This document shows positions 12,213-61,791 of a stretch of DNA of 64,000 nt, piece after piece. Source of the stretch: Yuukianura sp. NJ FZ-2021 (taxonomy: Eukaryota); assembly GCA_046563655.1 (NCBI GenBank), contig CM102290.1:8866001-8930000 (forward strand), written 5' to 3'. The notes below the pieces were generated by a model. The model had not been told where the DNA came from, did no database searches, and saw nothing but the letters and a program-made list of their open reading frames with translations. The stretch's first letter is position 1, and each line of letters begins with the position of its first letter. The position numbers were made by a program, and so were the translations under genes.

Positions 12213-14397
12213 ATGGACCCCAACGACTCGAATAATAACAAGACTTACCAAAAGTATAAACTGGACGAACCGATTGTTCTTGACATTGAGTAAGTACTAT
12301 TAAAGTATTGAGGTTAAAGTTCCTTGTTTTCAATTGAATGTAAAATCCTATAATTATAGGATAACTTATACTGTTTGCTACAGTAGAGGGTTTGAAATAC
12401 CATTAATTTTGGAGTCAATCTTCGTTTAGTAGTTCGTATCACTTAGTACTTAATTAATGTATACTTACTTTATGATTGTCTGTAGAGTAGATTGACTGTA
12501 TGAGTTTGTTTATGAATGCAGGAAAATCCAAGGAGAGGGCATCCATGTAAAACCGAATGTTGCTGCTGAAGATTGGTTGAGCCGTCGCTGCAGCTCGTTG
12601 TCATCATCGGATGACGAAGAGGAAGACGATGGCATTCGCTTTAAAATGGGAGTCGGGACATGGCTGCCTAAACTTGAAGAGGCAGGGTTAGCTAAAAGCT
12701 GTTCATCCGGAAACGTAAAGGCAGTGCCAGGCATATCACAAGTTTTCGACGGCCTCAAGATGAATGAGTCTACGGAACTCGTCCCGATTCTGGACGATGG
12801 CAACGAACAAGACGACTGGACTCCTTTGACGCCTTTCCGAAAATTGGAGAAGATTTTTGACAACATCACGGATGACGGATCACTGAAAAAGAAGGTAAAG
12901 TTAATGTCAACATTACATCCGCAGTAGTAATTAGTGCAATTTTCAGTTAAATAACTATGCATTTTAAATTATGTCAGCTCCTCCAAGTAGGGACAGACAA
13001 GAAGGTACCGCTCCATGCGGTCGTTTGGATACGCTACGACATGTATTGTGATGGCATGGATGAAATTGTCTATCAAACAAAGAAACCGTTCAAGTTTCGG
13101 CTTTTCCAGCCTGATATCATGCCTTGGATTGACCTTGCCGTTACTACAATGGATTTGTACGAGACATCTTGGTTTCTGGTTCAACCTGAACTGGGATTCA
13201 AGAAGAACGGATTACCAGGATTTGTTCCTCCAAGTAAATTAGTTCAAACCATGTCTTACTCCTGTATCGAAGTGTTTACTAATAGTCGGTTAACACGGAC
13301 AGTATTATTGTGATTGTAGATTCCAAATTACTGTTCAAAGTTGAACTGGTTGACTTCCGGGAGGTTGGGGCACCAGGACTTACTCGATTGGAAGAAGAAA
13401 CTTTGCAGACACGCTCGTACCAAGAAATCATCGCTTGTGTTGTCGAATTAAAAGACCGTGCAAGTGCTTACTTGAACAGAAGAGAGCCGTGTTGGCGAAG
13501 TGCTTATAATTTGTAAGATGGTTAACCTTTTAGTATTTGTTATACTTCGCAGTTATGACATAAATCATCATTCTAAAGCTTTTTTGGCTAGTTAGGTATC
13601 GCAGAGCAGCACACTTTCTGGAAAAGTACTTCGTTTTTGATCCTGCCTTGGAACAAGATATGTTGAAGAATGTCTTCAACCTTCACAATAACATGACATT
13701 GTGCGCCACTAAAATGGAATGGTACGAACGGGCAGTCTTCCATTCTGAAAAGGCACTGCAGACACCAGCATTTGCGCATTCGAATCTCCAAAAGCTGTAT
13801 TACCGGTAATACGCTACATACACGTTACAAACATAGGAAACAACTGGATACTACGCGCATTTGATCTGTCTGTATTGATATTAGTCGTGCCACGGCCGAA
13901 TTGGAGATGGGGCAGCCGGAAACTGCGCTGGAGGACATTCTTAAGGCTAAACAGTGTAATCCAACGGATACTGAGATTCAAGCGTTAGAAAAACGGGTAA
14001 AACTTCATTTCCCTTGTACTGATTCGCTCGGATTGAAAGTCGGCTTATGCGTTGCAGCACCAATTAACTTATATTAAAGAATTGAAAATGTCAATGCAAG
14101 GAAAAATCGAAAAGAATCTTAGTAATCCAAATGTTTCCCCAGTATTTTTGTTTGAATCTTCCTTAACATTTCTTAATAATTTTCATGCATTGGTGCAGCA
14201 GCGCGAAATAGTCTGATTTTCAGTTGGCGGGATTCAACAAGGTCACTAATATTTCCAGATACTGCGATACAACGTTAGCGCTAAGCGCTAACTGCTGTAG
14301 TTTTTTTTTTTTTGAAACAATACAGATTCGGGAGAAGTTAAGAGCAGACAACGCCGTTCAAAAGGACCTCTTCAAGAAAATGATGGCTGTTCCTTGA
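12213..14397 (+). CDS. shu: FKBP6/shutdown-like co-chaperone (degenerate FKBP PPIase domain + TPR repeats)
   Basis: Acidic N-terminus, FKBP-like VWIRYDMY...LAVTTMDLYETSWFLVQPELGF...LLFKVELVDF and TPR-like KLYYR|RATAELEMGQPETALEDILKA. Ends FKKMMAVP*. Architecture matches FKBP6/Shutdown. Confidence 0.82.
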
Positions 14398-15038
14398 ACA
14401 AGATTGTTGCCAATGAATTAGTAACTACTAGTTTTACTTATGTAGTCACTACAAGCTAGTTTTCTTTTTAGTTTATTAGGACTTACTTAGCACTTTTGCT
14501 ATAATTTATTTATCTCAGCAAATAAATTTTCATTCCTGGAGCTAATAAATCTATACTCTTTAACCTTCCCGTTCAACTCCAGTTCTCTCCACGATTCCGC
14601 AAAATGACCGACCAGAATTTAGCAAAACCTACCAACAGTTTAAAAGTCGAGTTCTACTTTACCATGGAAGTTTCTAATGAAGTTTCTAGAAACCAAGAAA
14701 TAGTTACCTTGTTTCGAAATTAAAACCAAACTAAATGAAAAAAATCGGCGATGCAAAGTCAAGATTTTGTTTTTGGAATTTAACGTTAATTTTAATGGCA
14801 ATACAAAATTAGAAATTGAAAAATGTGAAAGTTTAATTGCTTACAAACTAGAACAACAAAAAAATTTTAACTTAACTATTAACTTAATTATTAGCCTAAA
14901 ATTATTGAATACAATGGAGCACAAAAAACTTAAATTATGAACCTTAGAATTAGATAACTTATTCAAGCTTACTAAACTTAAGTACAAAAATATAAGGAAA
15001 TTACACTTCGGAACAGCGAGACTTAAACTTAGGGAAGA

Positions 15039-16571
15039 TTAGCCTACGATGATCCTGCCGTTGAAGTCGAAGATGGCGATGAATCCAGCCTTCAAGACGG
15101 TGACATCGGTGGGAAGCTCCAGGGGAAGATGTCCAATGGCACGAACGGAATCCAAGGGTTGTCCAGACGACGAGAAGACCTTGATGGAGTGGTTCCGAGT
15201 ATCCGCCACGAGGAGGTTTCCGCAGTTGTCCAGGGCCAGTCCAGAGGGTCTCCAGAGTCCAGTATCCACGATCTTCTGGCAGAAGGCGAAGTCCACCGGC
15301 ATCTTGAAGACGGCGTGGGCGTTGAAGTCCGAGGCGTAGAGGTGCTCTCCTGATGACGAAAACAAGGAATCCGTTTTAGACTTCTGCTTGCTTCATCTTG
15401 GATTCTTCGTCTTCTTTGAGCTGCTGGCTGTCCCACCGGTGAGGTCGAATGTGAGGCCGCGTGGAAACTCCAGTCCTGGTTGGTACATCATCCCCAAGAT
15501 GCCTCCGTCCGGGTTGAAGAGCTGGATCCGATGGTTCCTGGAGTCGGCCACCGCGATGAGTCCATGCTTCGAGACGGCGATCCCCCAGGGGTAGAGAAAT
15601 TGTCCAGGATACTTCCCTCTGCTGCCGAAGAACGCGATGAAGGTTCCGGTTGGAGTGAAGGCCTGGATGCGATGGTTGTCCTTGTCCGTCACGACGATCC
15701 GGTCCAGAAGGGGGTCGTAGGCAATTCCAGTTGGGCGGCAGAAGAGTCCAGCTGAAGTCCCGAGTCCTCCGAAGGCTGTGATGAAGTCTCCCTCCGGTCC
15801 GTAGACGACAACTTCGTGGTGCTCCCGGTCCGTGATGAAGATCTGCAAGGAAGAACGAACGAAAACGTTAGAGATTGCTTCCAAGCCAAGCAGAGAAGCT
15901 TCCTCACCTGCTCGGTTGAAGGATTCGTCGTGATTCCCCAGGGCTTCCGTCGCTTGGTCAATCCGTCTGGTAGTGGCATCTCGGCGTCCATGGTGACGAT
16001 TGGCTTGCTGATGGTGGCGTAGCTCCTCTCGATGAAGATGTGGAACGGTGATCCAGGAAGATGGAAGGTCCCAACGAAGGCGGATCCAACGAAGAGTCCA
16101 GTTTCCAGTGGCAGGAAGGTGCAGTAGAGGTGGTGGTCATCTTGGCGGTGAATCCCCACGGTGTACTTCGATCCGGATGGTCCAACGACGGAGATGTCCA
16201 GCGATGAGGTGTCCAGAAATCCATGTGGTCCAATTTGGATGGTGAAGGTTGTCTCCTGTCCAGCGTAGTGGTGGTCCCCGGATGGCTCGAAGACTGCTGT
16301 CCCAATGATGTTGAGGTAGTGGTCCAGATCCAAGTTGAAGTCATCTTCCGGAGTGGCAACGGCAGAGGAGAATCCAGAGTCCGTAGTGTTGTCCAGGTCC
16401 AGGGTGAGCAGTTCCTGAAATTAAGCAAAGAAAAGATATTAGTAACGATCGTCATCTCTAGTTCTAGGCAGGATCACTGCGGAATTAGAGACCCACCTTC
16501 GTCATGTTGAGAGATGAGCCCCGAGTGAATGGTCCAATGGCGGCGAAGAGATCCGGCTGTGAAGTGTCCAT
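15039..16571 (-). CDS. Filamin-repeat + six-NHL-repeat protein, LIN-41/TRIM71-like C-terminal half (about 432 aa); exons 16571-16497, 16414-15908, 15842-15437, 15349-15039
   Basis: Filamin-type AGQETTFTIQ...ISVVGPSG...YCTFLPLETG...HLPGSPFHIFI. NHL blades PWGI..IFITDRE, RPTGIA..VTDKDNHRIQAF, YPWGIAV..VADSRNHRIQLF, FPRGL..ASDFNAH, RPSGLALD..VADTRNHSIKVF, LPTDV. Three GT-AG introns keep frame. An alternative in-frame ATG lies at 17099. Confidence 0.88.
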
Positions 16572-16607
16572 GCTTGGCTTCAAGGTCGTCTGCAGTTGTA
16601 GTCTTCT

Positions 16608-16967
16608 GGGTGTCCCGGTCGTCGTCCAATGGAAGCCCGCGATGTCCGGTCGTCGTCGTGTGGTTGAAGAGGTGGGTGTCCCGGTCGTCGTGGAGTAGAA
16701 GCCCGCGATGTCCCGGTCGAGATACCCGAGCCTTTCGACCCAGAAGTATGAAGAATCCCTCAGTGACTTTCTGGGCGGTACTTGGCCAAGGTCTCGTGTC
16801 CCGGTCGTCCTTCTTGTGTAGAGCTCGTGTCCCGGTCGTCCTTCTGGTGTAGAGTCCGTGTCCCGGTCGTCCTTCTGGTGTAGAGTCCGTGTCCCGGTCG
16901 TCCTTCTGGTGTAGAGCTCGTGTCCCGGTCGTCCTTCTGGTGTAGAAGCCCTCGTGTCCCGGTCGTC
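16608..16967. repeat. Tandem repeat array: five 31-bp units (16795-16952) plus a partial unit, and four degenerate core copies (16608-16720)
   Basis: Unit CGTGTCCCGGTCGTCCTTCTGGTGTAGAG(CT/TC) starts at 16795, 16826, 16857, 16888 and 16919 (fifth unit 3 bp longer), with a partial copy at 16953. Core TGTCC(C)GGTCG also occurs near 16611, 16643, 16677 and 16709. Confidence 0.95.
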
Positions 16968-17030
16968 GGCTGGCTGGTCCTCGGAGCGGTGGTGGGAGAG
17001 GTCCTTCTCCTTCGGCTGCTGGCGAGCGAC

Positions 17031-17144
17031 TGTTGAGCTCTCACTCTCTGCAGCCGCTTTTATACCCCCGGCCTTCCCATCCTCTCCATGGAAGGCCATG
17101 ACGTCACGGCATTTCTAAAATTAGCCTCCAGCGCGAAATTCAAA
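17031..17144 (-). promoter_or_regulatory. Putative core promoter of the filamin-NHL gene: TATA box, CRE, E2F/CHR-like composite
   Basis: Minus-strand TATAAAA at 17064-17058 in GC-rich flanks, Inr-like TCAACAGTC about 30 nt downstream, palindromic TGACGTCA at 17099-17106, GCGCGAAATTCAAA at 17131-17144. Confidence 0.55.
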
Positions 17145-17382
17145 TTCCAAAAAAAAAAAAAAAAACAAGTAAACAAACCACTCTCACTCCCTCGTAAGTC
17201 GTACTTATAATACCGTAAATTAAAAAAAAAACACTAATAACAAAGAAAAATAGAGATTCATCAAGTTCTGCGATTGATTCTTGTATTTCACTTAACATTT
17301 TCACCTACATCTTCCAGAATTGATAAAGTTTATGAGTTATACTAATTATATCATTATGTAAAGCGCAGATTTTAGCATTTTT

Positions 17383-19038
17383 TCACCCCGAAGATGCCGG
17401 GACTGGGTAAATATAGACCTTCTCATCGAAAGTGACGAATGCCATACAGAGCTTATTGACGATCTCGTCTGTTGTCGATGAATCTCCTTCCTCCCGAACT
17501 CCATAGAACCCGGGAATGAAAGTTGCAACGCTATCTTCAAAGTGGAATCGTGTAGGAACTTTGTCTTGGATGAAATACGTGTCTCCGTCCCATGTACACG
17601 CAAAAATACTACCATTTACTTGGAATAACGACGTGATTTGATGTTCGACTTCCAATTTCCTAAGAAATAAGACAAAATTCACGACAAATTCTAATTTCGT
17701 GTCCATCCAGAAAGAATCTAGAATTACTGATTGTAATTGGAATTTACCACTGGACGTCGCTGTTCCTTGCAATGATAATCTTTCCATCCATTGTAGCTAC
17801 AGCATAGGAATAATCATGTTCTCCTTGTGATGCAATTACATTCCCAGTGACTTCACAGGAAATGGATTGATTAATTCCATGAGCAGTGTCATGAGCGTCA
17901 TGAGCAGTGGCATGTGCAGTGTCTATGGGCATAAAATAGTCGATAGTGATATTCTCCACTGCTGAGACAGTTCTACGGGAAATTCTGTGGTAAGTGAAGA
18001 TAAAGTACTGAAAGTTATTGTCCATAGGTAGCTCATTGTTAAACCTAAAGCAACATCATCGATTCTAGTGGTCGAATTTACCTATCCGGTTCCTTTTTTA
18101 GTGTCTCGGATGGAGTTCGTACTGCGGGCGGGTGACTCCCGCCTTTTGATGTTAATGAAGATGTAATAGTGGAGCTTCCAGAGGAAGCCACAGGTACAGC
18201 GGGAAGTCCCTCTTCAGTCGTTTCTTCAAGAGTTTCGGTGATCTTCTTGATCATACCACCGGGTTGACTAACCAGAATTGACAGTGATCCTACTTCTCGA
18301 TGAAGCGCAATACATCCAACTTGACTAGAGAATTCCCATTTGTTCAGCCCATACAATCGACCATAAAATAATTCTTCCCGCTTCCCGTCTTTACAAGGTT
18401 TTCCACTGTCCAGCCTTTCTTCCTGAAACAACGAGATTTAAACCTGTTATTTCATATGACAAAGTGTAAGTGGTACAAAGGTGGCATCACATCAACTACA
18501 ATCATTTGGTTTGTCTTACTGAGTTGTCCAATCCTTCGGACTTCCACTGATATGTCCGGACTACTCTGTCTGTCAGGCCTAGGACCATTTCGGTTAGTCC
18601 ATCACCGTTGACGTCTCCGAGATGCAGTGACTTGGTATTCGGGGGAATCCGTTGAGAGTGATATGGCCAAATCATGGACGTCTCCGGCGGTAAGAACTGA
18701 GTTGGTGAATCTCCTTCCGTTACATGAAAGGCACGGTCGAATGATGCAAGTTCAGACTCTACGTCAAAGATGTGACACCAACCCTCAATAGTTACTGCCA
18801 CGAGCACATTCTTTTCAATGTTGAGCAAATCTCCGACTGCCAAAGCTGCGATAGCACCTAAATCTGAAGACGTACAGAGACATTGATCCTCCCGAAAAAT
18901 GCTTAACTCCCCCTCGGAAGAACCAATGATGAATTCGTTTAATCCATCGTTGTCCACATCTCCAAAGCAAATAGCATTTTTCAGAACACTTCCATTAAAC
19001 TTCAAAACAACACAATCCACAAGTGACAGCGTCCGCAT
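17383..19038 (-). CDS. ITFG2: KICSTOR subunit ITFG2 (integrin-alpha FG-GAP repeat protein 2), about 4 exons
   Basis: MRTLSLV..LKFNGSVLKNAICFGDVDNDGLNEFIIG, QRIPPNTK..LGDVNGDGLTEMVLGLTDRVVRTYQW, ILVSQPGG, YAVATMDG and ACTWDGDTY match ITFG2 motifs. Confidence 0.9.
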
Positions 19039-23020: not shown

Positions 23021-25132
23021 ATGGTAAGTTACTGTAAAACTTAAACGGTATTCTAGGATTTCATCTGTAAATTAATTGAAATACATCAAATAATTCTGTG
23101 TTGTTGTATTGCAGAAGGTGGGACTCATTATTGTATGTCTGGCAGCACTTTTACAACCGCTAGGAATCAATGGACAAGACGACGAAGAGTCAGATTTGGA
23201 CATCATTAGACAATTCGAACAAACGCTGGGTGGAGGAACACACGAGGATACTGCGTTGCCGAGCGATCCTGCAAAACCAACCAATCAGAAACAAGTATCT
23301 ACTCCGGCAGTACAACCTCAGCCAAAACAGCCCGTTTCAGCGGAGAATAGGCCGAGTCATTCTGCCAACACGTCACTGGACATAATTCCAGAAAAGGATC
23401 CGTGCAGTTGCGTCAAGTACTTTCTGTGTGACATTGACAATGGAGCAGTCATTGACAACGGAGATGTCATTGGACTCATTGACATTCGTCTGGGTGGACT
23501 TGCCAAGGGGTCCCCTTGTGACCACTACTTTGACATTTGCTGCAAGGTAACACCACTTCGCCTTTATTCTTAACTAAGGTGGTTACGTTTTTTAAGTTTA
23601 ACTTAACCAAGGTTCGTAAACAAAAATGTTTTTTTTTCTACACCAGGTTGTCCAATAATTCGTATTTATTTGAAAATATCAAATCTTCCGATTTACGGTA
23701 TGTTATCCAAATGGAATTGGTACCAAAAGTTGTTTCAAACAAGATTTTTGAAAACCCGTGGAGTTATTGGACAACCTGTTGTATGAATTACAATTCGGTT
23801 GTCAAGGAACCTTGAATTTGACTAAGCATGGTCTCATGAAGTTTTTATTTTGTGTGACTAGAATATGAAGGACCCCGACGACAGAGTCCTTCCTGAACAG
23901 CCTACGTTCCAGCACAGCGTTTGCGGAAAACGGAATATTGGCGGAGTTGGATTTCGCATTACGGGGGCAATGGATGGAGAGGCGCAATTTGGCGAATTTC
24001 CTTGGATGGCAGCCATTGTGAAGCAGGAACCTCAAGAAGACAAGCAACCGCTGAACATTTTCCTATGCGGTGGATCACTCATTCATCCCAAAGTAGTCCT
24101 AACAGCATCACATTGTGTTTTCGGGTAAATGCGGAAATTTTAAATTTTAAATTCAAATCTTGTTTGAAAACTAACGTTTTCTTGGTTTTTGTTGTTCTTC
24201 AACAGGAAAAATGCGGCAGAACTTAAAGTGCGTTTAGGGGAATGGGATACACAAACTCCAGATGAACTTTACCCTCATCAAGATAGATTTGTCACAAGGG
24301 TAAGATAGAAAACTTTTTTTAAACTTTCATTTCCACCTTTTGGAAAATTGTGCTAATTTTAAATCCAAAAAACCCAATTCAATTGTTTGAAAAGCCTCGT
24401 TTTAAGAGAACTTTGTTCGTTTTCAAATTGTTTCATAGATTGTTGTACACGAGGACTACTATGCAGGCGCTCTGTACAACGACATTGCCCTTCTCTTTTT
24501 AGACGAAGAAATCAAATTTGCCCCAAACGTTGACACGGTGTGTTTACCACCGCCGAATGTCAACTTCGATGGGCAGCGATGCTTTGCTTCGGGATGGGGC
24601 AAAGACACTTTTGGTAAGTTAGAAAACAATACGCAATTCATGAAAAAAAAAAGTTGAAATTGCTTATTCCTGGCAGGTCAAGAGGGAAAATACCAAGTAA
24701 TTTTGAAAAAAGTGGACGTTCCAATTGTTCCACGCGGAAAGTGTCAGTCGGCACTTCGGAGAACAAGGCTTGGTCCGTACTTTCGCCTTGACGAGTCGTT
24801 TGTGTGTGCTGGTGGGGAACCAGGGCGTGATACTTGCCGTGTACGTACATTTCCATTTCCAATTTTCCGCGAATCTTCAAATTGCCTGTCATTTGCAAAT
24901 TGAAATTGCATTCTTCGTTTTATTTGTGTTTTAGGGAGACGGAGGGTCACCGTTAGTTTGCAAATTACCCGATTCGCAATCCTATGTTCAATTTGGAATT
25001 GTGGCATGGGGAATCGGGTGCGGGGAAGGGGGAACTCCGGGAGTATACGTTAACGTACCGAAGTTTGTTCCTTGGATTGAAAGCAAACTGAAGGCAGCCA
25101 ACTTGGATACAAAGTATCACAAAGCTTCATAA
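23021..25132 (+). CDS. Secreted CLIP-domain serine protease homolog (PPAF-II/masquerade-like, non-catalytic)
   Basis: ATG alone before intron 23024-23114. Signal peptide KVGLIIVCLAALL, clip cysteines CSCVKYFLC..GLIDIR..CDHYFDICC, EAQFGEFPWMAA, LTASHC and YNDIALL. GDGGSPLVC shows Ser-to-Gly at the catalytic site. Confidence 0.93.
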
Positions 25133-53000: not shown

Positions 53001-54959
53001 ACGCCATTCAAATTGTGCCAGTACGCCCCTCTGTGATTACGAAACAGTCAACTCCAACAGAAATGGACTCCAATTCTAACTGTTTGGAGTTAACACCGAA
53101 GAAGCTATGGGCTGGAAATTCTCTATCCAACATTCCATCCGTGACAACCGTGAAAGGAGTTCCAATCTCAGAAGGGAAAGTGAATTACTCGAGAATTGGA
53201 CCAGTTAGTAGTAGTGAGACTATCCACATTGAGCACATTGGTCCCGTGGGAGAGTCAGATAAAACAACGACGCTCACGATGACTGGGCCTCACAAGTACT
53301 TCAGCGGTCCAGTTCCAAATAAAGTGAATATTGTAAACTCCGAAGTTCGCAGTACTCTTCAAGGAATTCGGCCAGCTCATCTTGGTTCTCTTTCTTCAAC
53401 CCCGTCCTCTTATACAAAGACAAGCAATCATGGCGTCTGTGACAAGCCAACATTGTCAATCACAACAATCGAGACTGACGCAAAGAAGCACAATGTAAAG
53501 ACATTATTACTTTTAGTACATTGTTTTATTGTTCGTTGTAATCTATTTCTTCAAAGTCTTATGAGTACTTACACAGTTTCATTTGATTACTTAGATATTT
53601 CCGATGTCTTGGGGGTCTCCGTCACAGTTCCTTCCAACTAGCAAAATCTACGGTGATCCATCCATACGGCCACTATCGTCGCCTAAGCTACTGACGATTT
53701 CACCGAAGGTTAATCATGTTATTCCGGCTGTGCGTGCCAACGGTGTATCAATTGCTCATGCGCACAATGAAGGAGCACTTGACTTCAGTGTCAAACGACC
53801 CAAGTTCAATTCATACACAACATCCGAGTCAGCGTCTACAACCAACCATAATGGCACTACTAATAATGGTGATTGCTTAGATCTCAGAATGGACAAAGCG
53901 CAGCCAGTTTCAACCAACAGGAAACCCTTCCACACAATCTCTGATATTCCACCGCCAAGTGCTGTCAATCAGCATGGCCTCCGACTTACATCAGAAGTCA
54001 CACTTTTCCCGTCTAAGCATCAGAAGCAAACCAAAAAACCACCTCCGCAAGTTCACGTCAAGCGTAGCACTTACCGTGAACAAAATCCACCAGTGGTGCC
54101 AGTACCCTACAACAATCATCAACAATTTCCAGCGGAATATCTTCCTGTTCCAGCCCAACCCCAGGGAAACAACTTTCATAACTCACCTAGTCGCCAACCT
54201 CACTTGCCGTCTCCTATACCTTCGAAACGGCCTTCTGAATATCAACAACAGCAAGGAGAGCCTTTGTACCCTCGAAACAACATCAATCCGAAAGTAGTAG
54301 GTGCTAATACCTACAGTCAATCTACCGATAGTCCTCGCGTGTGGAAGACTCCAACGAATCCTGCTCCAGTTGCCGCAAGTCCAGGAATCCCCAATAACCA
54401 TAACCATCACTCCAATTCCTCTCCTTCGCGAAGCAACAGTACCCGAGAACTGACGACGCTAAATCATGGATCACCTAATAACGCCAACCAGGCCAAGTAT
54501 ACGAATACAGCGGCTCATCCAACCTATTCACCTACGTCAGACAAACGGTCGTCGTCTCAAGCACCGCATCCGTCAAAAGCTAGTCCTACCTCGGCGATGC
54601 AAGTTACAGACCAGGACAGACGCTACCGTCATCGTTCCGACAGCAACGCAAGAGACAGAGAACGAAGCAGTCGGAATTCAGAACAAGTTCAAGTCAATTC
54701 CCCGTATGGGAACTTTGTGCTTCCAACACCGCCACCACCGCCATTCAATTATCCGTACGCTCACGCTTTGGATCCAGCTTTCTTTCAACCACCTTTCCCG
54801 GGTTCTTATGGGATTACGCCGTCTCTCCTAAGATTCCCGCCAGGAACGATGGAATCACTTCAACTGGCATACATGCAACAGGGCTTCTCACCACATCCAC
54901 ATATGCTCAACTGGCCAGCAGCACCAGGAAGAGAATCCAGAAGTGGAAGTCAAAAGTAA
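26071..54959 (+). CDS. ARID5B: ARID5B-like protein (BAH-type N-terminus, AT-hook, long low-complexity tail; no ARID domain found); exons 26071-26094, 39300-39536, 49255-49513, 51359-51580, 52007-52113, 52418-53494, 53595-54959
   Basis: GHHGPYSFYK, IAEVQLLW, LYFLPENTPEGRLRHHGE|DEVIALQDKVII, NYQRYVRVRTLVKRLE, LVLALGG and FDYPELEDHELLCNHL|APKLKGRPRK parallel the ARID5B N-terminus. Splice phases are consistent throughout. Exon 1 (MGSIKEVQ) is the least certain. Confidence 0.85.
28733..28934. mobile_element. MITE family A copy (TA-flanked, CAGTAAAA termini; Tc1/mariner-pogo-like)
   Basis: TA|CAGTAAAA...TTTTACTG|TA. The right half is the reverse complement of the 43720 copy (CTCATTGCGCAAC..TTTGAC..CGTAAAAC). 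Confidence 0.7.
34439..34851. mobile_element. MITE family A copy carrying a nested insertion
   Basis: Starts TACAGAAAGACTGCTCATTCCGCAACAC..GGGACACCGTAAAAC and ends GGAATGAGAGGTTTTGCTGTA. Both ends resemble the 43720-43933 copy. Confidence 0.65.
34603..34776. mobile_element. MITE with about 48-bp terminal inverted repeats, nested in a family A copy
   Basis: AGGTCATTAGCGCGAAAACAATAAGCGCGAATTCCACAAATCGGCAACA pairs with TGTTGCCAACTTGTCGAATTCGCGTTTATTGTTTTCGCGTTAATGACCT. Confidence 0.8.
37495..37670. repeat. TA-rich low-complexity tract
   Basis: Dense TATA/TGTA runs. Confidence 0.6.
41346..41534. mobile_element. MITE with 20-bp TIR, with a probable nested TA-flanked element at 41390-41487
   Basis: ACCTCCTAAATCCGAACGAG vs CTCGTTCGGATTTAGCAGGT (one mismatch). 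Inner TACCGTAAAG...CTTTACAGTA. Confidence 0.65.
43720..43933. mobile_element. MITE family A copy
   Basis: TA|CAGTAAACCTCCTCATTGCGCAAC ... GTTGCAGAATGAGAGGTTTTACTG|TA: imperfect TIRs with TA flanks. Confidence 0.75.
47531..48630 (+). mobile_element. Non-autonomous Helentron/DINE-1-like element (HINE)
   Basis: 14-bp subterminal inverted repeat AAGTATCGTCAGAT (47535) / ATCTGACGATACTT (48592-48605), 5' palindrome AAGTATC-GTCA-GATACTT, (CCGT/CTGT)n microsatellite near 47569-47590, internal ~289-bp tandem duplication (47611 vs 47900), T-rich flanks. Confidence 0.75.
50031..50167. repeat. Small foldback/MITE-like relic
   Basis: Left arm repeats TTATG(G/T)AC, right arm repeats GTCC(G/A)TAA, with a central GGTTAGGTT. 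Confidence 0.45.
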
Positions 54960-55695
54960 GAATCCTCAGAGAAAGCGGTTGTTCAACTTAAACAAGTTTA
55001 ACTACACGTTTTATACTACTGGCAGGCACTCAAACAACTTATTTTTCCGTTTCCTCTCTCCCTTGCAAATTCCTTTTTATAATTTCTTACTTCTCATGTG
55101 CTAGTATTTTCAATTGTAAATGGAAAGGATCCCTTTCCATTTCCCCATGGTTTTATCCTGTTTCAAAATTATGAAATTCTAATTCATTTTGTTACATACG
55201 AGTTACCGCAACATTATGTAGCTACAAGTCCTGCAGTAAAGGCATTCGTCATTATGAAACAAATCACAGCGGTTAGAAAGTTGTTTTCCCTACATGAAGA
55301 AAATTCCAAATGGATTCTAGTAGCTGAGTATTGAGAAACCATTATTTTGAGAGGAACAAACATTCTATAAATTCCGTTTCGTGCTGAATGAGATACTACA
55401 TTATTATACCTCTACCAAAAATATATTCGTATAAAATGTTATTTAATTATTCTCAAGCGTAAATGAATTATGAATAAATTATTAAATCTACGAACTACAA
55501 TTTTTTTTAAACTAAACAATTACATTCGCGGTCGAATCTATGTCGTACAGGAATGAAAGTTTATTTAACTCGAACTTAGTCAATCGATTTGCGTAACTTT
55601 AGCTTAACTTTAGTTTAAAAAGTGTCATATTCTCGTTGATACGATCGTCAGTGTTGAATAAGGTGGACATGGGACTTAATTAGGGCTCATCGCCA

Positions 55696-57355
55696 TTAAA
55701 AAGTAATTTGCCTGGCTTCAGAAGGATTTTGCTCTCCAGGACAGTATGGGCACTTAAGCCTAGAATTTGAATAGTAATAGTAATGGATCAATGTACGTTG
55801 CATTTGTATTATTGTGAGACCCTCAATTCCTCAAAACTAAATTCCTTACTTGTTGCCAGGCGCAAGCTTATGGAGGGCATCCCGTGATATTACATGTCCA
55901 CATGTTAGTCGCATTGGTGGATTTGTTTCTGACGATTGTTGCCTCAGAATTGGACAAGCAAAAATTGAATGGTAGTGAAATTCTTTCCCAAGATCAATTT
56001 CAATCTAAAAAAAAATCAACGGCAAATATTATGCCTAGAATGTTGTTAAGTAGGTACTAAAAGACTTTTGTTAATATTGTAAGTTACAGGCAGTTCGTCC
56101 TTGCCGTTCCAGATATTTGACACTTGCCGTGCCTGCATCACTTGGCAGATATTCAATAATGCTGGCAGAGCTATACAACCAGCCTGGAAACTGCAAAACA
56201 AGTATTTTCATCACAAGTATTCCACAGTAGAGTTATAATAGGAAGGCGAGATCATACCAAACTGCTAGAGGGGAATCCACCGATAAACCAAGTCGTGCGC
56301 ATGCGTCCTTCAAAAACGTTTCACGAATATCGTCCCATAAAGACGAGTCAAATAAGTGGGCATACGGTGATGTCTCAATGTTTCCAGGAATATAAAGCAA
56401 GGAACCCATCAGAACTTGTATTTCTAAACGGGGTAAACAAATGCAACAATCACAAATTCGAATGCAATTAATCGCGTGATCTATGTATTGAAATTGTGTT
56501 ACCTTTCTCATGTTTGCAGACAAATTCACGGAAGTTTTCCCGAGCATATTGTATCGCTTCTGCTTGGTAGCTGGGTCCCTTCCTAATCAAATCTATGAAC
56601 GCTAGACGATGAAGTTTAAATTCAAGACTGGATCCTTGAGCATTGAGCGCTTGATGATTCTCAAACGCCCACTTCAATGCTGGTTCCAGTTGTCTGGCAG
56701 CTAGCGAGTCCAAAATTCGATGTAACTCCACAAATGGTTCCTTGTACTTGGGCTCCAAAATCAGGCCTGATTCCTGACAAAGTGCTTCACCTATATCCAG
56801 TAGTCCTTGGCGATATAAATGTTGGCACACTACTTGGGTTAATATTTGTGCGCGTTCGCCGGAAAAGAGTCCATCCCTCGTGATGGCTCCGAAGTCGGGA
56901 TTGAAATTCTGTAGCACATATTGTCATTTTTGTAAGAATTCAGCGCTGTCAATTAAGAATGTTAATGTCAAAGAAAGAATGTGTCTTATACTCTGTCAAT
57001 TGCCTTCCCAACTTTAGACACTGCGCTATGAAGATCTCGATGATCAGTAGCAAGCCTTCCAACTAAATCTCGAACCCTGTTCAAAGTTTCGAACACAATC
57101 GTCGACTGACCAGACGTGAGTTCATAATTTTCGCCAACCACTGTAAAAAAAAACGAGACATTAATTTGCATTTTTTTCAGTGGTGTCTTAGGGGGAAAAT
57201 AGTTCAAATTAGTACTCGCCTTCACCATACTCCTTTTGCAGTTCAGTGATATGATCGCAGAGCTTGTCCACTTCTTTATTGAAGATTCCCTGGACACTCT
57301 TGATTTTGCTGGCAACTCTTTCGACTTCACGTTCCACTGCATCACAACACTCCAT
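55696..57355 (-). CDS. RMND5: RMND5/GID2 RING subunit of the CTLH/GID E3 ligase
   Basis: [19 protein letters not shown], Lis[46 protein letters not shown]...[26 protein letters not shown] at 57355, TAA at 55698-55696. Confidence 0.95.
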
Positions 57356-60225
57356 GATCAGCTGTTTGTAACAGCTGTAATGCTGGCATACACAACGTTG
57401 ACTTTCTTGTTGCACTGAAGAACGATATTACTCCAGGAGGATGTGCAAAAACCACTCCGCATATGTTTCAATCTGCTTCCTGTAATACAAACAAGATATA
57501 CTAACTATATCTGCAAAGAAAAATTATAATAATATAATAATAAATTATTATATTTAATTAAATGTGTCAAACCTACTAGCAGCAAATCGAATCTCAACTT
57601 TTCGTATAATACTATGTTCTGATTTAGCAAACTTGCCTTTTTAGCTTATTCCATCCTTCTGCGTCTTAATTTCAGTGTTGAGTTGACTAAATTGCCATTT
57701 GTTAACCAACTGCTTGAATTCCACTTTTGTTGTTTCTAAGTCCAGTATTTATAAGGTTATTTGAACTTTTACTTTAACAAATTCTGAAGTTTGAAATTTT
57801 GTTGTGTAGGAATGAATTCCTGATTCAAAAATTTGAGCGCATAATCTCTCCTCTCACCCACCTTACCAAAGAGAACGTAAAACGCCTACACTGAAAATTA
57901 CACTCACTGAAAACATTTAAAATCTGAGGTTAAAATCAACAATAATTAATGAATTAAGTGCAATTCGTGTTTCACACAACCATTCATAATTTCTAAACTG
58001 TCCTTTTTCCAAAATCTCCCTTGCAAAATAACCATTGTCCAGCATGACCTGAGGTTTCATAACACCGAGCAACATAATTCCACACAACGATTTTCAACTT
58101 ACGGTCTACTGCTTTAATTTCTCTATTTCCCGTTTATAGTAGATTGAAATTGGTAATTTGTTATAATTTATTATTATTACTATAAATTATTATAAAAGAA
58201 GCAGTGGCGTTTAGCCTGCGTTATTAAATGGCCCGGAGGGAGAGGAGTTGATGAGTATGGTTTTTCGAAGGCTTTTGGCAAAGGGGAGCTCCCACTGCAT
58301 CTCCCACGGAGAAGCATTTATTCCCAGTGCATCCCCACCAGGTAACTCATAGTCAACATCAACATACATCACTAATTAACAGCCACTAGTACTCACTTCA
58401 AAAATTAAACACCAATTGGTCTTCTAATCGTCATCAAATTATACTTTAACTGAAGTTAAGTAGCTCTCCATTCTAGATTTACTTCTATTTTTAATTGCGA
58501 AACAAAGCCGGAGAGTGAGTGCGGACGTTGGAGTTGATTGTGCCTCTGTCGGCAAATTCTCAGAGTCCAAAGTGGAGAGCCAAGTAGTCTCTCCGCTTAT
58601 ATACTGTTGTTGTGTCTACTGTTTATCAAAAACCAAATTAACCAGTTGTCATTGGCAGTTCCAGGTCCAGGAGACACATCTCTGTCACGGAATACCACTC
58701 AAAAACTACTGTACATACACACGGTACTCAATCACACAACAATCTACTCTAAACTTAGTTGTAGTAGGCGTAGATGCGGCAGAAACTGGACTCAGTTTGA
58801 AAAGTAACACTGAATCCTTCCAGACGTTATCCGGGTTATCATCGATAAATTGGAGTGGACTACTGACAGGAAGTCATCCGTTGGAGGGGTAGATTACACT
58901 TGACTTTGCCAGTTGAACAACATCCCGTACCGGACAATTGTACTATGTGGAGTATAAACGTAAACAATTGTAAAAGTGACATTTGGTGACAGATACTTGG
59001 GCTGTGGTCCTCAACAAGGGATGCTTCTTGGACTACTGCTAGTTCAGAAGCGGATCAACGTCACCACCTACTCTGTTGCAATTTGGAATCTACTGCTGCG
59101 GTGACATCCATACCCGATTGTGATGAGTTAAAATATACGAATTGATGGTCTCTGGTGAATACCCAGGCAGTTAACCAGAACTCCTGGAGGAGTCGTTCCA
59201 GCTACAGTAGCAGTCAAACGGCATCAATCTGAAACCCCCACGGTCATACGAAAGGTATGGAGTAGCGGTGAAGGAGTGGGTTTTGTTCATAACAAGTATA
59301 ACTGTATAAACTAATTGAACTGAGCATCGCACGTTGTGAATCACAACGTACGATGAAACATGATGAACCGTACGATGAAACGATCAAAACCCAATTCCTA
59401 ATCGTAAGTTACGTTAGAATCAGCTCAATTTTCTTAATTTTAGTGTTACTTCGTAAATTTTTAGAATAGTTTATTATCCTACCTTTCCATCTAACCATCT
59501 TCATTCGTAAGTTACAAATTGTAACCGTGAAAATGGAAACAGATTTTAGCTCAATGCAAATCTCCAGTCTAGCCGCCCATAGTTTAACGATTTGATTCGC
59601 AAACTACCACTACGATCTATATTTTCTGAATTAAATTTTGTGTAACAGGCCTTAGGAGTCAATTTTCAATTCACATACGTGAGGTGACTTTGGAGGGTAG
59701 GACGTCAGTCGTCGGTTAATCTACGTTTCTTGTTCCAGTCTAATGCAATACGACCTAGCAAATTGATAATTTTACTAGGATTCGGAAGCATTATTGTCAC
59801 TGTTCTGTACAGCCTAAAGATCAACACTGGACCAACGATGGTTGAGATGCTGAATGATATGAGAGATGTAGTCGGGGGGCTTAGTGCGAAAGTACTCCCA
59901 CTTTCAGCATCTTAAAATTAGTATCGTAGTTCTCGAAACCTAAGATTAACTATTACTATATGAGCCGGTTTTTGTTTATATTTTGCTAATCTTAATGGCT
60001 GTTTGTGATTCAGAAATTTCATTCGATGGCGTCATTACTACACGAGCGGGAATGAGAAGTAGGTCTTCTAGAACCGGTCATATCGACAGATCCATCGATT
60101 AACCATGTCATGACTCAGGGCCAAGCCATCCTGAATGTCCGCAGTAGCTATTATAGCTAATGTTACGTCCAAATCCAATCATTCGGTTTTGTATTTTGTT
60201 AATAATTTTGTTTCCGTCTTTTCAG

Positions 60226-61791
60226 CTCAAAGCTGGAGCCACCAGAGACTGTCCTGGGAACCTCTGGAAATTCTAGCTTGTGGACCAAGTCAATCATCTC
60301 TCCGAGCACGACGGGCAGCGATCCAACGGGGGGTACTCGGCCATTTGCGGCCACCCCCAACAATCAAACTACCTCCCCCTTTTCAGCCCCTGGAACGCCA
60401 AATGCCTATCAGGTTTGTCTCTCCACTTAATTTTTATACTAAAGTACACTCATAAATCCACTAAATCGCTGTTTGAATTTCAGGGGGGATCGGGATACCC
60501 AGGAAGCGTGCCAGCAGCAGGAAGTCCATTTACGCCACAAGGTGGGACTTCTGGTGGATCCTCAACACCATGTCCACCACCTCATTATGCGCATTCACCG
60601 GCGCCTTCAGGCTCTTCAACGCCTGTTGGGTTCAACTCCCATGGTCCACCACCAGGCCCTGCTCCATTTCCACCGGGGCTGTACAATGGTCCAGGCCCCA
60701 ATTCCCCATACTACAACAATTTCCAACAAGGTGGCCCACCACCTAGAGGACCACTCCAGCCACCTCCACGAAATGCCTCTTTTCCGCCCTACGCTGCCCC
60801 TGGCCCACCAAATCATACAAATAACTTTGGACCTCAGCCTTTCCCACCTCATTTCCAGCCTCAACTCCAACCAGGTACAGTTACAACGTACAAGTCTGAT
60901 GGCTTATCGAAAATGATAATTTGTTGAACTCAATTTTTAGCGAATCATGGACAATCTGCCTGCCAATTATTACTTGAAGGTCACCCAAGTCAGTCAGCAT
61001 CTTCTAATCTAGATAACTTCTCTTTATCTTTTACACATTGCACACACAGAATCTGCCTCTGCATCGTTGTTTTAGCATTGGCAGTGGAATTTAGTATAGT
61101 AGGATAGGACTTGAAGGCAAACGCAACAAAAATCTCTAAATACACTTTCCATTAACTCCCTCATGTACTGCATCTCCCTTCGCCAGTCTTACACTGGAGG
61201 TTGTTTATAAATCCATTGCACTATTTCAATCATCTGAGCCCAAGTTTTACATTTAGAGATTTGTAGATGTCCTCTTGGCGACTCAGTAGCAGATCACATT
61301 ACAAGATGCTTGTCCGTAACGTCTTTCAATGAGTCAGGTTAAGTTGGCTACTAGTTCCTTTGATATAATCAACTAAAGGCAGGTTCAATCTTTCTGAATA
61401 CCTCTAGTTTCATCTTTAGTTTAGTTGTAGTAGGAGCTAGAGACAGTTCGAATTTTAGAGTCGCGAAGTTGGATTGTTGTGATTTCCTGGAATCATGGCT
61501 TCGGTGCTGTCAATTGTAGCTGCTAGAAGGAGATCTAGAAGTGGAAGATTGGCTTGGCGTAAATCTATTACTAGTTTTCCCACAGAATTTGAGAATTTTC
61601 TCGGCCAATTCAAAGCAATAACAATCAATAATGTTTAACTTAGACATTGGTTTGTTGTACTTTTAAATGTTTTTGTTTTCATTCTTTTTTAAGTGATATT
61701 GTTTTTGTGTTGCAGGCCCTCACCTACAACCTGGTCCACAAAATCCGGGCGGGATGTCTGGACTAATTCCAGATAGGATACCTGACCATGG
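60226..61791 (+). CDS. Chi: Chip/LIM-domain-binding protein (LDB), N-terminal Pro/Gly-rich exons only (60226-60412, 60484-60874, 61716-61791); gene continues past the window, start codon unresolved
   Basis: YAHSPAPSGSSTP resembles the insect Chip N-terminal motif as recalled. The last exon ends PDRIPDHG at a GT donor, where the dimerisation domain would follow. The diagnostic LDB domain itself is not in the window. Confidence 0.6.

What the first reader, a model, noticed from the sequence alone, without database searches (positions are those of the whole stretch)
15039..16571. Intact stand-alone LIN-41/TRIM71-type filamin-NHL protein without RING, B-boxes or coiled coil
Seen: a four-exon ORF of about 432 aa with a short acidic N-terminus, one filamin repeat and six NHL blades. 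ITFG2 ends about 800 nt upstream, leaving no room for RING/B-box exons. Known: the blade signatures PWG..DR, DKDNHRIQ, YPW..DSRNHRIQLF, PRG..DFN and RP.G...DTRNH are those of LIN-41/TRIM71, whose filamin-NHL unit binds RNA stem-loops while the RING provides E3 activity. Inference: an RNA-binding-only derivative that could act as a competitor or decoy of LIN-41, or as a retargeted RNA reader. Together with the repeat leader and alien composition, this is the best candidate here for an undescribed system.
Basis: partly seen in the sequence, partly recalled or inferred. Interest (0 to 1): 0.8.

Follow-up and report, generated by a model that had tools for sequence, protein, structure and literature searches.

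The report
TRIM-less LIN-41-like filamin-NHL gene
This is a real, intact gene for a LIN-41/TRIM71-like RNA-binding protein that has lost its whole ubiquitin-ligase front end; it belongs to a small, so far undiscussed family whose named members are all from springtails.

Summary
A minus-strand, four-exon gene (16571-15039, GT-AG introns of 82, 65 and 87 nt) encodes 432 aa: a disordered acidic N-terminus, one filamin repeat and a six-blade NHL propeller, with no RING, B-box or coiled coil. ITFG2 ends 812 nt upstream. A TATA box and a 464-nt ATG-free leader lie between them.

It is not unique. It belongs to a clade of TRIM-less proteins of 397-586 aa. The three named members are springtail proteins (Folsomia candida 'protein lin-41', Allacma fusca, Orchesella dallaii). 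Five mRNA-like contigs of relatives carry complete ORFs with an in-frame stop upstream of the ATG, so the family is TRIM-less at transcript level.

The clade joins named TRIM71 proteins (support 100/99). The window protein keeps 11 of 14 zebrafish LIN41 RNA-contact residues; the three changes sit in blade 1 and are widely shared in the family. N-termini share a [DES]SG[YF]x[ST] motif.

The odd composition is real (GC3 0.68-0.77 against 0.34-0.49 in neighbours). The gene is nevertheless native, and extra, variant contigs in the DNA runs suggest more than one copy. Expression and RNA binding of this copy are untested. Verdict: a new variant of a known kind, of moderate interest.

The parts
17099..17106 (-). 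TGACGTCA palindrome (CRE-like site) about 35 nt upstream of the TATA box
   Evidence: Motif scan. The function is inferred from the recalled consensus only.
17057..17064 (-). TATAAAAG, putative TATA box of the gene's own promoter
   Evidence: It lies about 28-31 nt upstream of an ACAGT (Inr-like) at 17033. This is an inference, not shown by RNA data.
16572..17035 (-). Putative 5' leader, 464 nt, 61% G+C, U-poor (11%), with no ATG before the start codon. It holds 8 exact copies of GACGACCGGGACAC.
   Evidence: 0 ATG where 3.9 are expected (93 of 5000 shuffles also have none); 8 matches of the 14-mer in the window, all here, against 0.13 expected. The RNA fold is no more stable than shuffles (z +1.28).
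16793..16967 (-). Tandem array, period 31, 5.5 copies, 94% matches, inside the leader
   Evidence: TRF.
16611..16719 (-). Second, looser tandem array, period 32, 3.3 copies, 67% matches
   Evidence: TRF.
16497..16571 (-). Exon 1: ATG (context AAGCATGG) plus 24 codons; donor AAG|GTGGGT
15908..16414 (-). Exon 2 (aa 26-194): acidic linker, DSGFSS motif, filamin repeat, linker, first strand of the propeller (KPWG...TEQ)
16364..16381 (-). DSGFSS (aa 37-42), the window's copy of the family motif [DES]SG[YF]x[ST]
   Evidence: present in 7 of 7 family proteins with a complete N-terminus, and in 2 of 21 TRIM71-type proteins. It is also seen in the ORFs of L001, L007, L012 and L059.
16040..16279 (-). 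Filamin/Ig repeat (aa 71-150)
   Evidence: Pfam PF00630, E 1.9e-7, above cut-off. PDB filamin chains reach E 2.4e-9. The AlphaFold model of exon 2 finds the Lin-41 filamin domain 4umg as best fold match (E 1.4e-7, TM 0.78 on target).
15437..15842 (-). Exon 3 (aa 195-330, last codon split): blades 1-4 in part
15039..15349 (-). Exon 4 (aa 330-432 plus stop TAA at 15041-15039): blades 4-6
15042..15946 (-). Six-blade NHL propeller (aa 182-432, interrupted by introns 2 and 3)
   Evidence: The fold of relative P0120 matches TRIM71 NHL structures with TM 0.90.
14815..15038 (-). Probable 3' UTR, with ATTAAA at 14837-14832. It holds no let-7 seed match.
   Evidence: The extra read depth begins near 14816-14846. 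The 3' end itself is inferred.

Best explanation
The gene encodes a stand-alone member of a family derived from LIN-41/TRIM71, probably springtail-specific, that has lost the RING, B-boxes and coiled coil. What remains is a disordered acidic N-terminus with a conserved [DES]SG[YF]x[ST] motif, one filamin repeat and the six-blade NHL propeller. Shown here: the gene structure, the domain content, family membership, the TRIM-less full-length mRNAs of relatives, the sister relation to TRIM71, and conservation of the basic stem-loop pocket. Inferred: the protein binds short RNA stem-loops with the top face of its propeller, as LIN41 does. The three changed blade-1 contacts, which in LIN41 read the flipped-out first loop base, would give it an altered loop preference. 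It has neither E3 activity nor the B-box2/coiled-coil effector, so it cannot repress in the TRIM71 way. It would therefore either occupy LIN41-type sites without repressing them (competitor) or act through its own N-terminus and filamin repeat. The N-terminal motif resembles a DSGxxS phosphodegron and may time the protein's destruction. The gene appears to have its own TATA promoter and an unstructured, ATG-free, repeat-filled leader. The public DNA runs suggest more than one copy.
For: Gene model and domains.
Own promoter and leader.
Family: full-length matches without a TRIM part to P0111 (Allacma fusca, 42% identity over aa 23-427), P0120, P0121, P0122 (Folsomia candida 'protein lin-41', 462 aa), P0124, P0326 and P0376.
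TRIM-less transcripts: 5 of 5 intronless contigs of relatives (L001, L002, L005, L007, L012) carry complete ORFs of 460-586 aa. Each has an in-frame stop before the ATG, a 5' UTR of 134-311 nt and a 3' UTR of 191-537 nt. L002 ends in a poly(A) run and L005 in AATAAA plus A7.
Gene structure: the positions of the window's introns 2 (after ...TEQ) and 3 (after ...DLTG) recur in genomic relatives L003, L044 and L059.
Tree: 49 rows, 386 columns; family 100/100; family plus named TRIM71 100/99.
PDB sequence searches: TRIM71 is best in register. For P0111, TRIM71 scores 215-228 bits, Thin 185 and TRIM2/3 121-125.
Fold search of P0120: Lin41 filamin-NHL at E 1.4e-37, then TRIM71, Thin, TRIM2, Brat.
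RNA contacts: 11 of 14 identical. C563R, R564K and S582E recur in 8, 9 and 7 of 10 family rows respectively (contact list from PMC5908797, passages).
Function of the parts: the NHL is necessary and sufficient for RNA targeting, and TRIM deletion abolishes repression (PMC3592402, passages).
Constraint: of the 10 listed coding differences in public DNA runs, 7 are synonymous and 3 are not. The one listed coding indel is 3 nt long.
Against: No RNA run was available, so expression, the transcription start and the splicing of this copy are unproven.
The frame upstream of the ATG stays open through the whole leader (ORF 16488-17114). So this gene, unlike its relatives, has no in-frame stop that excludes an N-terminal extension.
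Three RNA contacts differ, one by charge reversal (S582E), so RNA binding could be weakened rather than retargeted.
No labelled TRIM2/3, Thin, Brat or Mei-P26 sequence was in the tree. The non-TRIM71 TRIM-NHL rows are unclassified.
The sister position to all TRIM71 has only 90/83 support on a long stem (0.99), so long-branch effects are possible.
No let-7 seed match lies in the 640 nt after the stop, nor in 5 relatives' 3' UTRs. Heterochronic control like that of lin-41 is therefore not indicated.
Whether the same genome also has a canonical TRIM71 to compete with could not be tested, because no genome is held.
The degron reading rests on a recalled consensus. For it I saw only search listings.
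Confidence: 0.6

Rival explanations
1. The family is the springtail orthologue of LIN-41 itself, not an extra paralogue or decoy. The lineage would have carried the arthropod trend of TRIM erosion to its end, and the protein would do LIN-41's job through a new N-terminal effector.
For: Among the insect TRIM71/Wech hits with precomputed Pfam lists, none carries a RING family. They show B-box with or without filamin, or filamin alone in P0146 (P0044, P0092, P0102, P0146, P0167, P0171). No springtail protein with a B-box appeared among the 120+120 listed hits. NCBI names the Folsomia candida member 'protein lin-41'. The family is sister to TRIM71.
Against: The lists show only the best 120 hits, and names exist for about a quarter of them, so absence of a canonical springtail TRIM71 is not shown. 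The long stem and changed blade-1 contacts suggest a shift in function. There are at least two deep subclades and signs of several copies, which is not typical of a single-copy heterochronic gene. No let-7 seed sites were found.
Confidence: 0.2
2. The propeller is used for protein-protein contacts rather than RNA (a scaffold or adaptor role). RNA-contact conservation would then be inherited rather than used.
For: Per PMC5908797 (passages), Drosophila Wech works in muscle attachment, and the NHL surface evolves quickly. S582E adds a negative charge at the pocket rim.
Against: 11 of 14 contacts are kept, including all six basic residues of blades 2-5 and Y658, W660 and F722. Most are kept across family members from two springtail orders, which is hard to explain without selection for the pocket.
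Confidence: 0.1
3. The model is mis-bounded: it is the 3' half of a longer TRIM71-type gene whose RING/B-box exons lie far upstream or on another contig.
For: The leader is open in frame with exon 1 up to 17114. There is no RNA evidence for this copy.
Against: ITFG2, a signal-peptidase S26-type gene and an Mpv17 gene lie directly upstream on the same strand. No B-box was found among 296 scanned ORFs; the single RING belongs to a CTLH gene. A TATA box and an ATG-free leader precede the start. Five relatives' mRNAs are closed by upstream in-frame stops. The N-terminal motif aligns near the N-terminus in all complete relatives.
Confidence: 0.05
4. This copy is a silent or decaying duplicate of a multi-copy family, and its G+C richness is a by-product of gene conversion.
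For: Extra depth and many variant contigs over exactly the G+C-rich unit. GC3 of 0.68-0.77 with intermediate intron G+C fits GC-biased conversion.
Against: The reading frame, the splice sites and the contact residues are intact. Listed coding differences are 7 synonymous to 3 non-synonymous, with an in-frame indel.
Confidence: 0.05

Closest known systems
LIN-41 / TRIM71 (including Drosophila Wech)
   Same: It has filamin repeat plus six-blade NHL in the same order. It is sister to named TRIM71 in the tree (100/99 for the joint clade). TRIM71 is the best PDB sequence and fold match. 11 of 14 stem-loop contact residues of zebrafish LIN41 are identical.
   Different: It has no RING, B-boxes or coiled coil, so no E3 activity, no coiled-coil dimer and no B-box2/coiled-coil repression module. 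Blade-1 contacts are changed (C563R, R564K, S582E). The N-terminus is new and carries the [DES]SG[YF]x[ST] motif. No let-7 seed match lies in the 3' region. The stem branch is long (0.99).
Engineered human TRIM71 deltaTRIM (filamin plus NHL only), Loedige et al. 2013, PMC3592402
   Same: The domain content is the same as in this natural protein.
   Different: The engineered form failed to repress 3' UTR reporters and repressed only weakly when tethered (passages read). The natural family has an added conserved N-terminal region and has been kept across springtail orders, which implies a function of its own.
Brat (Drosophila), a RING-less TRIM-NHL protein
   Same: It is an incomplete TRIM-NHL protein that works as an RNA binder without E3 activity.
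   Different: Brat keeps B-boxes and the coiled coil, has no filamin repeat, and binds single-stranded RNA by another surface logic (PMC5908797). It is a far weaker match here (96 bits against 248 for TRIM71 with exon 3).
Springtail database entries: Folsomia candida 'protein lin-41' (P0122, 462 aa), Allacma fusca unnamed protein (P0111, 534 aa), Orchesella dallaii unnamed protein (P0148, 302 aa)
   Same: They share the TRIM-less architecture, the blade-1 changes and the clade. P0111 and P0122, the two with complete N-termini, also share the N-terminal motif.
   Different: They are only 39-42% identical to the window protein over most of its length. They are automatic annotations. I found no paper that discusses them.

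Membership tests
TRIM-NHL (class VII tripartite-motif proteins) | N-terminal RING finger | tested here: not met
   There is no RING family on any exon. The 60-aa N-terminus holds no Cys/His pattern. The only RING in 296 scanned ORFs belongs to a CTLH gene about 39 kb away.
TRIM-NHL (class VII tripartite-motif proteins) | One or two B-boxes | tested here: not met
   No PF00643 match on the exons or in 296 flanking ORFs.
TRIM-NHL (class VII tripartite-motif proteins) | Coiled coil between B-box and filamin | tested here: not met
   Only about 70 residues precede the filamin repeat. The exon 2 model shows one 8-residue helix and low confidence before the Ig fold. Relative P0120 is disordered over residues 1-65.
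TRIM-NHL (class VII tripartite-motif proteins) | Filamin/Ig repeat followed by a six-blade NHL propeller | tested here: met
   Pfam; PDB sequence matches; fold matches 4umg and 6fpt.
LIN-41/TRIM71/Wech subfamily | NHL domain groups with TRIM71 rather than with other TRIM-NHL proteins | tested here: met
   Joint clade 100/99. PDB bit scores rank TRIM71 above Thin, TRIM2/3, Brat and Mei-P26. Caveat: no labelled TRIM2/3, Thin or Brat rows were in the tree.
LIN-41/TRIM71/Wech subfamily | Basic top-face pocket: the 14 RNA-contact residues of zebrafish LIN41 | tested here: inconclusive
   11 of 14 are identical. R564K is conservative; C563R and S582E are not. The residue list comes from PMC5908797.
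LIN-41/TRIM71/Wech subfamily | Binding of tri-loop RNA stem-loops (LRE) | not testable with these tools
   This needs RNAcompete, RNA Bind-n-Seq or gel shifts.
LIN-41/TRIM71/Wech subfamily | let-7 complementary sites in the 3' UTR (recalled feature of lin-41 genes) | tested here: not met
   No CTACCTC or TACCTC in the 640 nt after the stop. No 7-mer in the 3' UTRs of 5 relatives' mRNAs; one 6-mer in L005. The seed is recalled from memory.
TRIM-less filamin-NHL family of springtails (defined here) | Start within about 25-80 residues of a [DES]SG[YF]x[ST] motif, then filamin, then NHL; total about 430-590 aa | tested here: met
   The window has DSGFSS at aa 37-42. The motif is present in 7 of 7 N-complete members; alignments.
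TRIM-less filamin-NHL family of springtails (defined here) | Shared intron positions after ...TEQ and after ...DLTG | tested here: met
   The window's introns 2 and 3 match exon breaks in L003, L044 and L059.
TRIM-less filamin-NHL family of springtails (defined here) | Monophyly with the named springtail members | tested here: met
   Ten rows form one clade at 100/100. The window is nested inside it. Taxonomy of the three named species.

The most novel reading that the evidence does not exclude
Springtails carry a conserved, multi-copy family of natural 'deltaTRIM' LIN-41 proteins. These would act as timed antagonists of LIN-41-type mRNA repression: they occupy stem-loop sites through a retuned pocket, cannot repress, and are removed on cue through an N-terminal phosphodegron. 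That would be a protein-level counterpart to let-7 control of lin-41, or a replacement of the canonical heterochronic factor in this lineage.
Probability: 0.15. Interest if true: 0.7.

Novelty: new variant of a known kind. Interest (0 to 1): 0.5.

Why it matters
TRIM71/LIN-41 is a central regulator of developmental timing and stem-cell fate. How its RNA-binding and ligase or effector halves divide the work is still debated. A natural, long-conserved protein made only of the filamin-NHL half is an evolutionary experiment on that question. It says the RNA-reading half has a selectable function by itself. Its shared blade-1 changes point to the residues that may set loop specificity. Its conserved N-terminal motif suggests a new regulatory handle. 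Folsomia candida is a laboratory species, so the family can be studied. The repeat-filled, ATG-free leader and the strong third-position G+C excess in an AT-rich genome are also a neat case for studying gene conversion or expression-linked codon bias.

Tried and rejected
Whole-genome search: no genome is held for this window. Paralogue counts and the presence of a canonical TRIM71 in the same genome therefore stay open.

Expression: no RNA holder was listed among the 5 runs found.

Exon 2 as a word-index query against longer proteins: 509 candidates, none at E<=0.001.

Exhaustive HMMER search with the family profile: the top 150 were swamped by giant multi-NHL proteins. Only 4 of 150 were single-stretch family members (P0111, P0326, P0121, P0376), so it gave no family census.

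First metagenome scan with alignment A1 failed, because the exon fragments left no conserved stretch. I rebuilt the alignment as A2 and reran it.

ESM Atlas with exon 2: the best cluster was 'TRIM71 (Fragment)' at 0.82, below the level that counts.

Earlier findings of this scan: nothing by place, sequence or words.

Rfam on 13500-18000: no match.

Other copies in the window: none by tblastn or blastn.

Labelling the non-TRIM71 outgroup rows as TRIM2/3 failed: P0166 and P0168 score about equally against TRIM71, TRIM3 and Thin.

Leader as a structured RNA element: rejected, since it folds no better than shuffles.

Foreign origin of the G+C-rich island: rejected as the main reading.

No complex prediction was run, because no binding claim rests on one.
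Full report
**1. What is in the sequence**

The gene reads on the minus strand. An ATG at 16571 (context AAGCATGG) opens a 75-nt exon with donor AAG|GTGGGT. Three further exons follow: 16414-15908, 15842-15437 and 15349-15039. They are joined through GT-AG introns of 82, 65 and 87 nt. The spliced frame is 1299 nt, giving 432 residues and a TAA stop. The finding's coordinates are exactly start to stop.

Pfam finds one filamin repeat on exon 2 (32.3 bits, cut-off 26.9). It finds NHL repeats on exon 3 (E 1.5e-23) and exon 4 (E 3.1e-12), and nothing else. The first 60 residues are acidic (11 D+E, 2 K+R) and rich in Ser/Thr. An AlphaFold model of exon 2 (mean pLDDT 69.9) gives low confidence for its first 29 residues and then an Ig fold. 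The best PDB fold match of that Ig fold is the Lin-41 filamin domain 4umg.

**2. No room for a TRIM module**

The last ITFG2 exon piece ends 812 nt upstream of the ATG on the same strand. Behind it lie a signal-peptidase S26-type gene and an Mpv17 gene. A PDZ gene, an FKBP/TPR gene and a CLIP-domain serine protease gene also lie nearby; the CLIP domain points to an arthropod.

None of 146 ORFs of 45 aa or more between 9131 and 25049 matched a RING or B-box. Of 150 minus-strand ORFs between 24968 and 62626, one matched a RING. It sits beside CTLH/CRA exons and belongs to that gene. Four ORFs beyond 63247, and any exon under 45-48 aa, were not covered.

Between ITFG2 and the ATG lie three promoter-like elements: TGACGTCA (17106), TATAAAAG (17064) and an ACAGT about 30 nt further on. 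They are followed by a 464-nt leader that has:
- no ATG (3.9 expected; 93 of 5000 shuffles also have none);
- 8 exact copies of GACGACCGGGACAC, found nowhere else in the window (0.13 expected);
- two tandem arrays;
- no more RNA structure than shuffled sequence (z +1.28).

One weakness remains. The frame upstream of the ATG stays open through the leader, so this copy offers no stop codon that closes the N-terminus.

**3. It belongs to a family**

With exon 3 as query, the most similar proteins were:
- an unnamed Allacma fusca protein (P0111, 57% identity over the exon);
- a 484-aa protein named 'tripartite motif-containing protein 71' by its source (P0120).

A profile search added:
- Folsomia candida 'protein lin-41' (P0122, 462 aa);
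- an Orchesella dallaii fragment (P0148);
- several unnamed proteins.

The spliced window protein aligns with these over nearly its full length at 39-42% identity. The matches start within 15-110 residues of their N-termini. Canonical TRIM71 proteins align only from the filamin repeat onward, at 33-38%. No protein over 57% identical turned up, so this gene's own product does not seem to be in the collection. All three named species are Collembola, from two orders.

**4. The family is TRIM-less at transcript level**

A scan of metagenome records returned five contigs of 1.8-2.4 kb (L001, L002, L005, L007, L012). All five hold one uninterrupted ORF of 460-586 aa. Each has an in-frame stop before the first ATG, a 5' UTR of 134-311 nt and a 3' UTR of 191-537 nt. 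L002 ends in a poly(A) run, and L005 ends in AATAAA followed by A7. I read them as mRNA-derived contigs. That reading is an inference from the missing introns and the tails.

Three other contigs (L003, L044, L059) are genomic. They break the reading frame at the same two places as the window's introns 2 and 3, after ...TEQ and after ...DLTG. So the gene structure is old and shared, and the gene is not a retrocopy.

**5. Relationship to LIN-41/TRIM71**

The maximum-likelihood tree has 49 rows and 386 columns:
- 10 family rows;
- 19 named TRIM71/Wech;
- 17 other TRIM-NHL or unnamed proteins;
- 3 bacterial NHL proteins as outgroup.

It recovers the family at 100/100 and joins it with the named TRIM71 proteins at 100/99. 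The family is sister to all of them at 90/83, on a long stem of 0.99.

The other TRIM-NHL rows could not be labelled as TRIM2/3, so the tree alone does not exclude every other subfamily. The PDB searches fill part of that gap:
- For exon 3, TRIM71 and Thin tie on total score (248 bits), but the best single stretch favours TRIM71 (102 against 82 bits). TRIM2/3 score 188-193, Brat 96 and Mei-P26 59.
- For P0111, TRIM71 scores 215-228 bits, Thin 185 and TRIM2/3 121-125.
- The model of P0120 (pLDDT 78.6, residues 1-65 disordered) finds zebrafish Lin41 filamin-NHL first (E 1.4e-37). It then finds TRIM71 NHL (TM 0.90, 37% identity), Thin (28%), TRIM2 (24%) and Brat (20%).

**6. The RNA-binding face**

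Kumari et al. (PMC5908797, passages read) list 14 zebrafish LIN41 residues that contact the stem-loop. I mapped them through a fish TRIM71 in a joint alignment. The window protein keeps 11: R581, R611, K628, D629, Y658, W660, R676, R707, F722, R752 and R770. It changes C563 to R, R564 to K and S582 to E.

These three lie in blade 1. In LIN41, C563, S582 and the aliphatic part of R564 hold the flipped-out first loop base. The same changes recur in most family rows: R at 563 in 8 of 10, K at 564 in 9 of 10, E at 582 in 7 of 10.

So the backbone-reading basic pocket looks preserved while the base-reading corner is altered. Published deletion work shows that the TRIM71 NHL is necessary and sufficient to reach RNA. 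It also shows that removing the TRIM motif abolishes repression, and that part of B-box2 plus the coiled coil and filamin form the effector (PMC3592402, passages). This natural protein has the domain content of that inactive deletion form, plus a new N-terminus.

**7. The N-terminus**

All 7 family proteins with a complete N-terminus carry [DES]SG[YF]x[ST]. In the window it is DSGFSS, at residues 37-42. The ORFs of L001, L007, L012 and L059 carry it too. Only 2 of 21 TRIM71-type proteins match the loose pattern. An upstream LDL-like patch is also shared.

The motif resembles the DSGxxS phosphodegron of beta-TrCP substrates. That consensus is recalled, and I saw only search listings for it. A role in timed degradation is therefore a hypothesis.

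**8. Composition and copy number**

The exons are 55-59% G+C, the introns 40-48% and the leader 61%. The downstream flank is 32% and the whole window 38.7%. The excess sits at third codon positions: GC3 is 0.68-0.77, against 0.34-0.49 in eight exon pieces of neighbouring genes.

Contigs of public DNA runs were laid on 14400-17500:
- In run X1 the summed depth is about 165-190 on both flanks and 301-1314 between about 14816 and 17103.
- X1 gave 106 laid pieces: 57 at 99% identity or more, 28 at 95-99%, 11 at 90-95% and 10 below 90%.
- Several contigs run on into unlike sequence.
- Run X2 is similar but noisier.

Summed contig depth is not a copy number. Still, the pattern suggests more than one copy or strongly divergent alleles of a unit running from the promoter to about 200 nt past the stop. 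No second copy lies in the window.

Run X5, from another study and labelled as another organism, covers the gene too. One contig (14903-15302) crosses from the AT-rich 3' side into the coding region. Another joins the promoter region to the upstream flank across a 120-nt gap. So the G+C-rich island is not an assembly chimera.

Among the 40 listed differences (69 more were not shown), 10 fall in coding sequence: 7 synonymous and 3 non-synonymous. The one listed coding indel is 3 nt long. GC-biased gene conversion among copies, or codon selection, would explain the composition. Neither was tested.

**9. Verdict**

It is plausible but untested on mechanism. It is too strong on uniqueness, because the gene is one member of a family already present, unremarked, in public protein sets. 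The family is probably springtail-specific.

I found no paper describing such a family. The searches were 'TRIM-NHL / filamin / RING-less' (45 papers held at least 2 terms; one listed) and 'NHL / springtail / Folsomia candida / lin-41' (848 held at least 2 terms; one listed). Subscription journals are not covered.

I rate it a new variant of a known kind, with moderate interest.

Noticed in passing
window 16610-16967 (minus strand): Eight exact copies of the 14-mer GACGACCGGGACAC, all in the presumed 5' leader and nowhere else in the 64 kb (0.13 expected). It is unknown whether this is a DNA site array downstream of the start site or an RNA motif.
   Followed up: partly
window 14877 and 17088-17209: The public runs differ from the window by an 11-nt deletion in a 12-nt tandem repeat at 14877 (all depth in X1 and X2). 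Some contigs of X1 and X5 carry a 120-nt skip across the poly(A/T) tract near 17135-17180.
   Followed up: no
window 12951-14397 (+): An FKBP-type isomerase exon and a weak TPR match belong to a plus-strand gene. Its 3' end converges on the 3' end of the filamin-NHL gene. AATAAA signals for both strands crowd 14477-14530.
   Followed up: no
window 55849-56923 (-): CTLH/CRA exons followed by a RING-type zinc-finger exon: a MAEA/RMND5-like CTLH-complex E3 subunit gene. It holds the only RING found in the window.
   Followed up: partly
window 23094-24900 (+): A CLIP-domain (PPAF-2 type) plus trypsin serine protease gene, which points to an arthropod.
   Followed up: no
window 54001-55000 and 60001-61000: Two further local G+C rises (0.49 against about 0.38). 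They were not examined. No NHL-like coding sequence lies there by tblastn.
   Followed up: no
P0111 (Allacma fusca), residues 447-534: The 88-residue C-terminal tail has no counterpart in any other family member. It looks like a gene-model read-through past the true stop or splice site.
   Followed up: no
P0102 (Blattella germanica TRIM71-like), residues 52-57: DSGISS lies near the N-terminus of a B-box-bearing TRIM71-like protein. This is one of only two loose matches to the family motif among 21 TRIM71-type proteins, so the motif may predate the loss of the TRIM.
   Followed up: no
L005, L007, L012; P0124, P0126: A deep subclade of the family (100/100) has a longer N-terminus (about 585 aa in total) with a shared PPPGFPP...IADTAAET stretch. 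It has S or T in place of R770. This suggests an old duplication with diverging pockets.
   Followed up: partly
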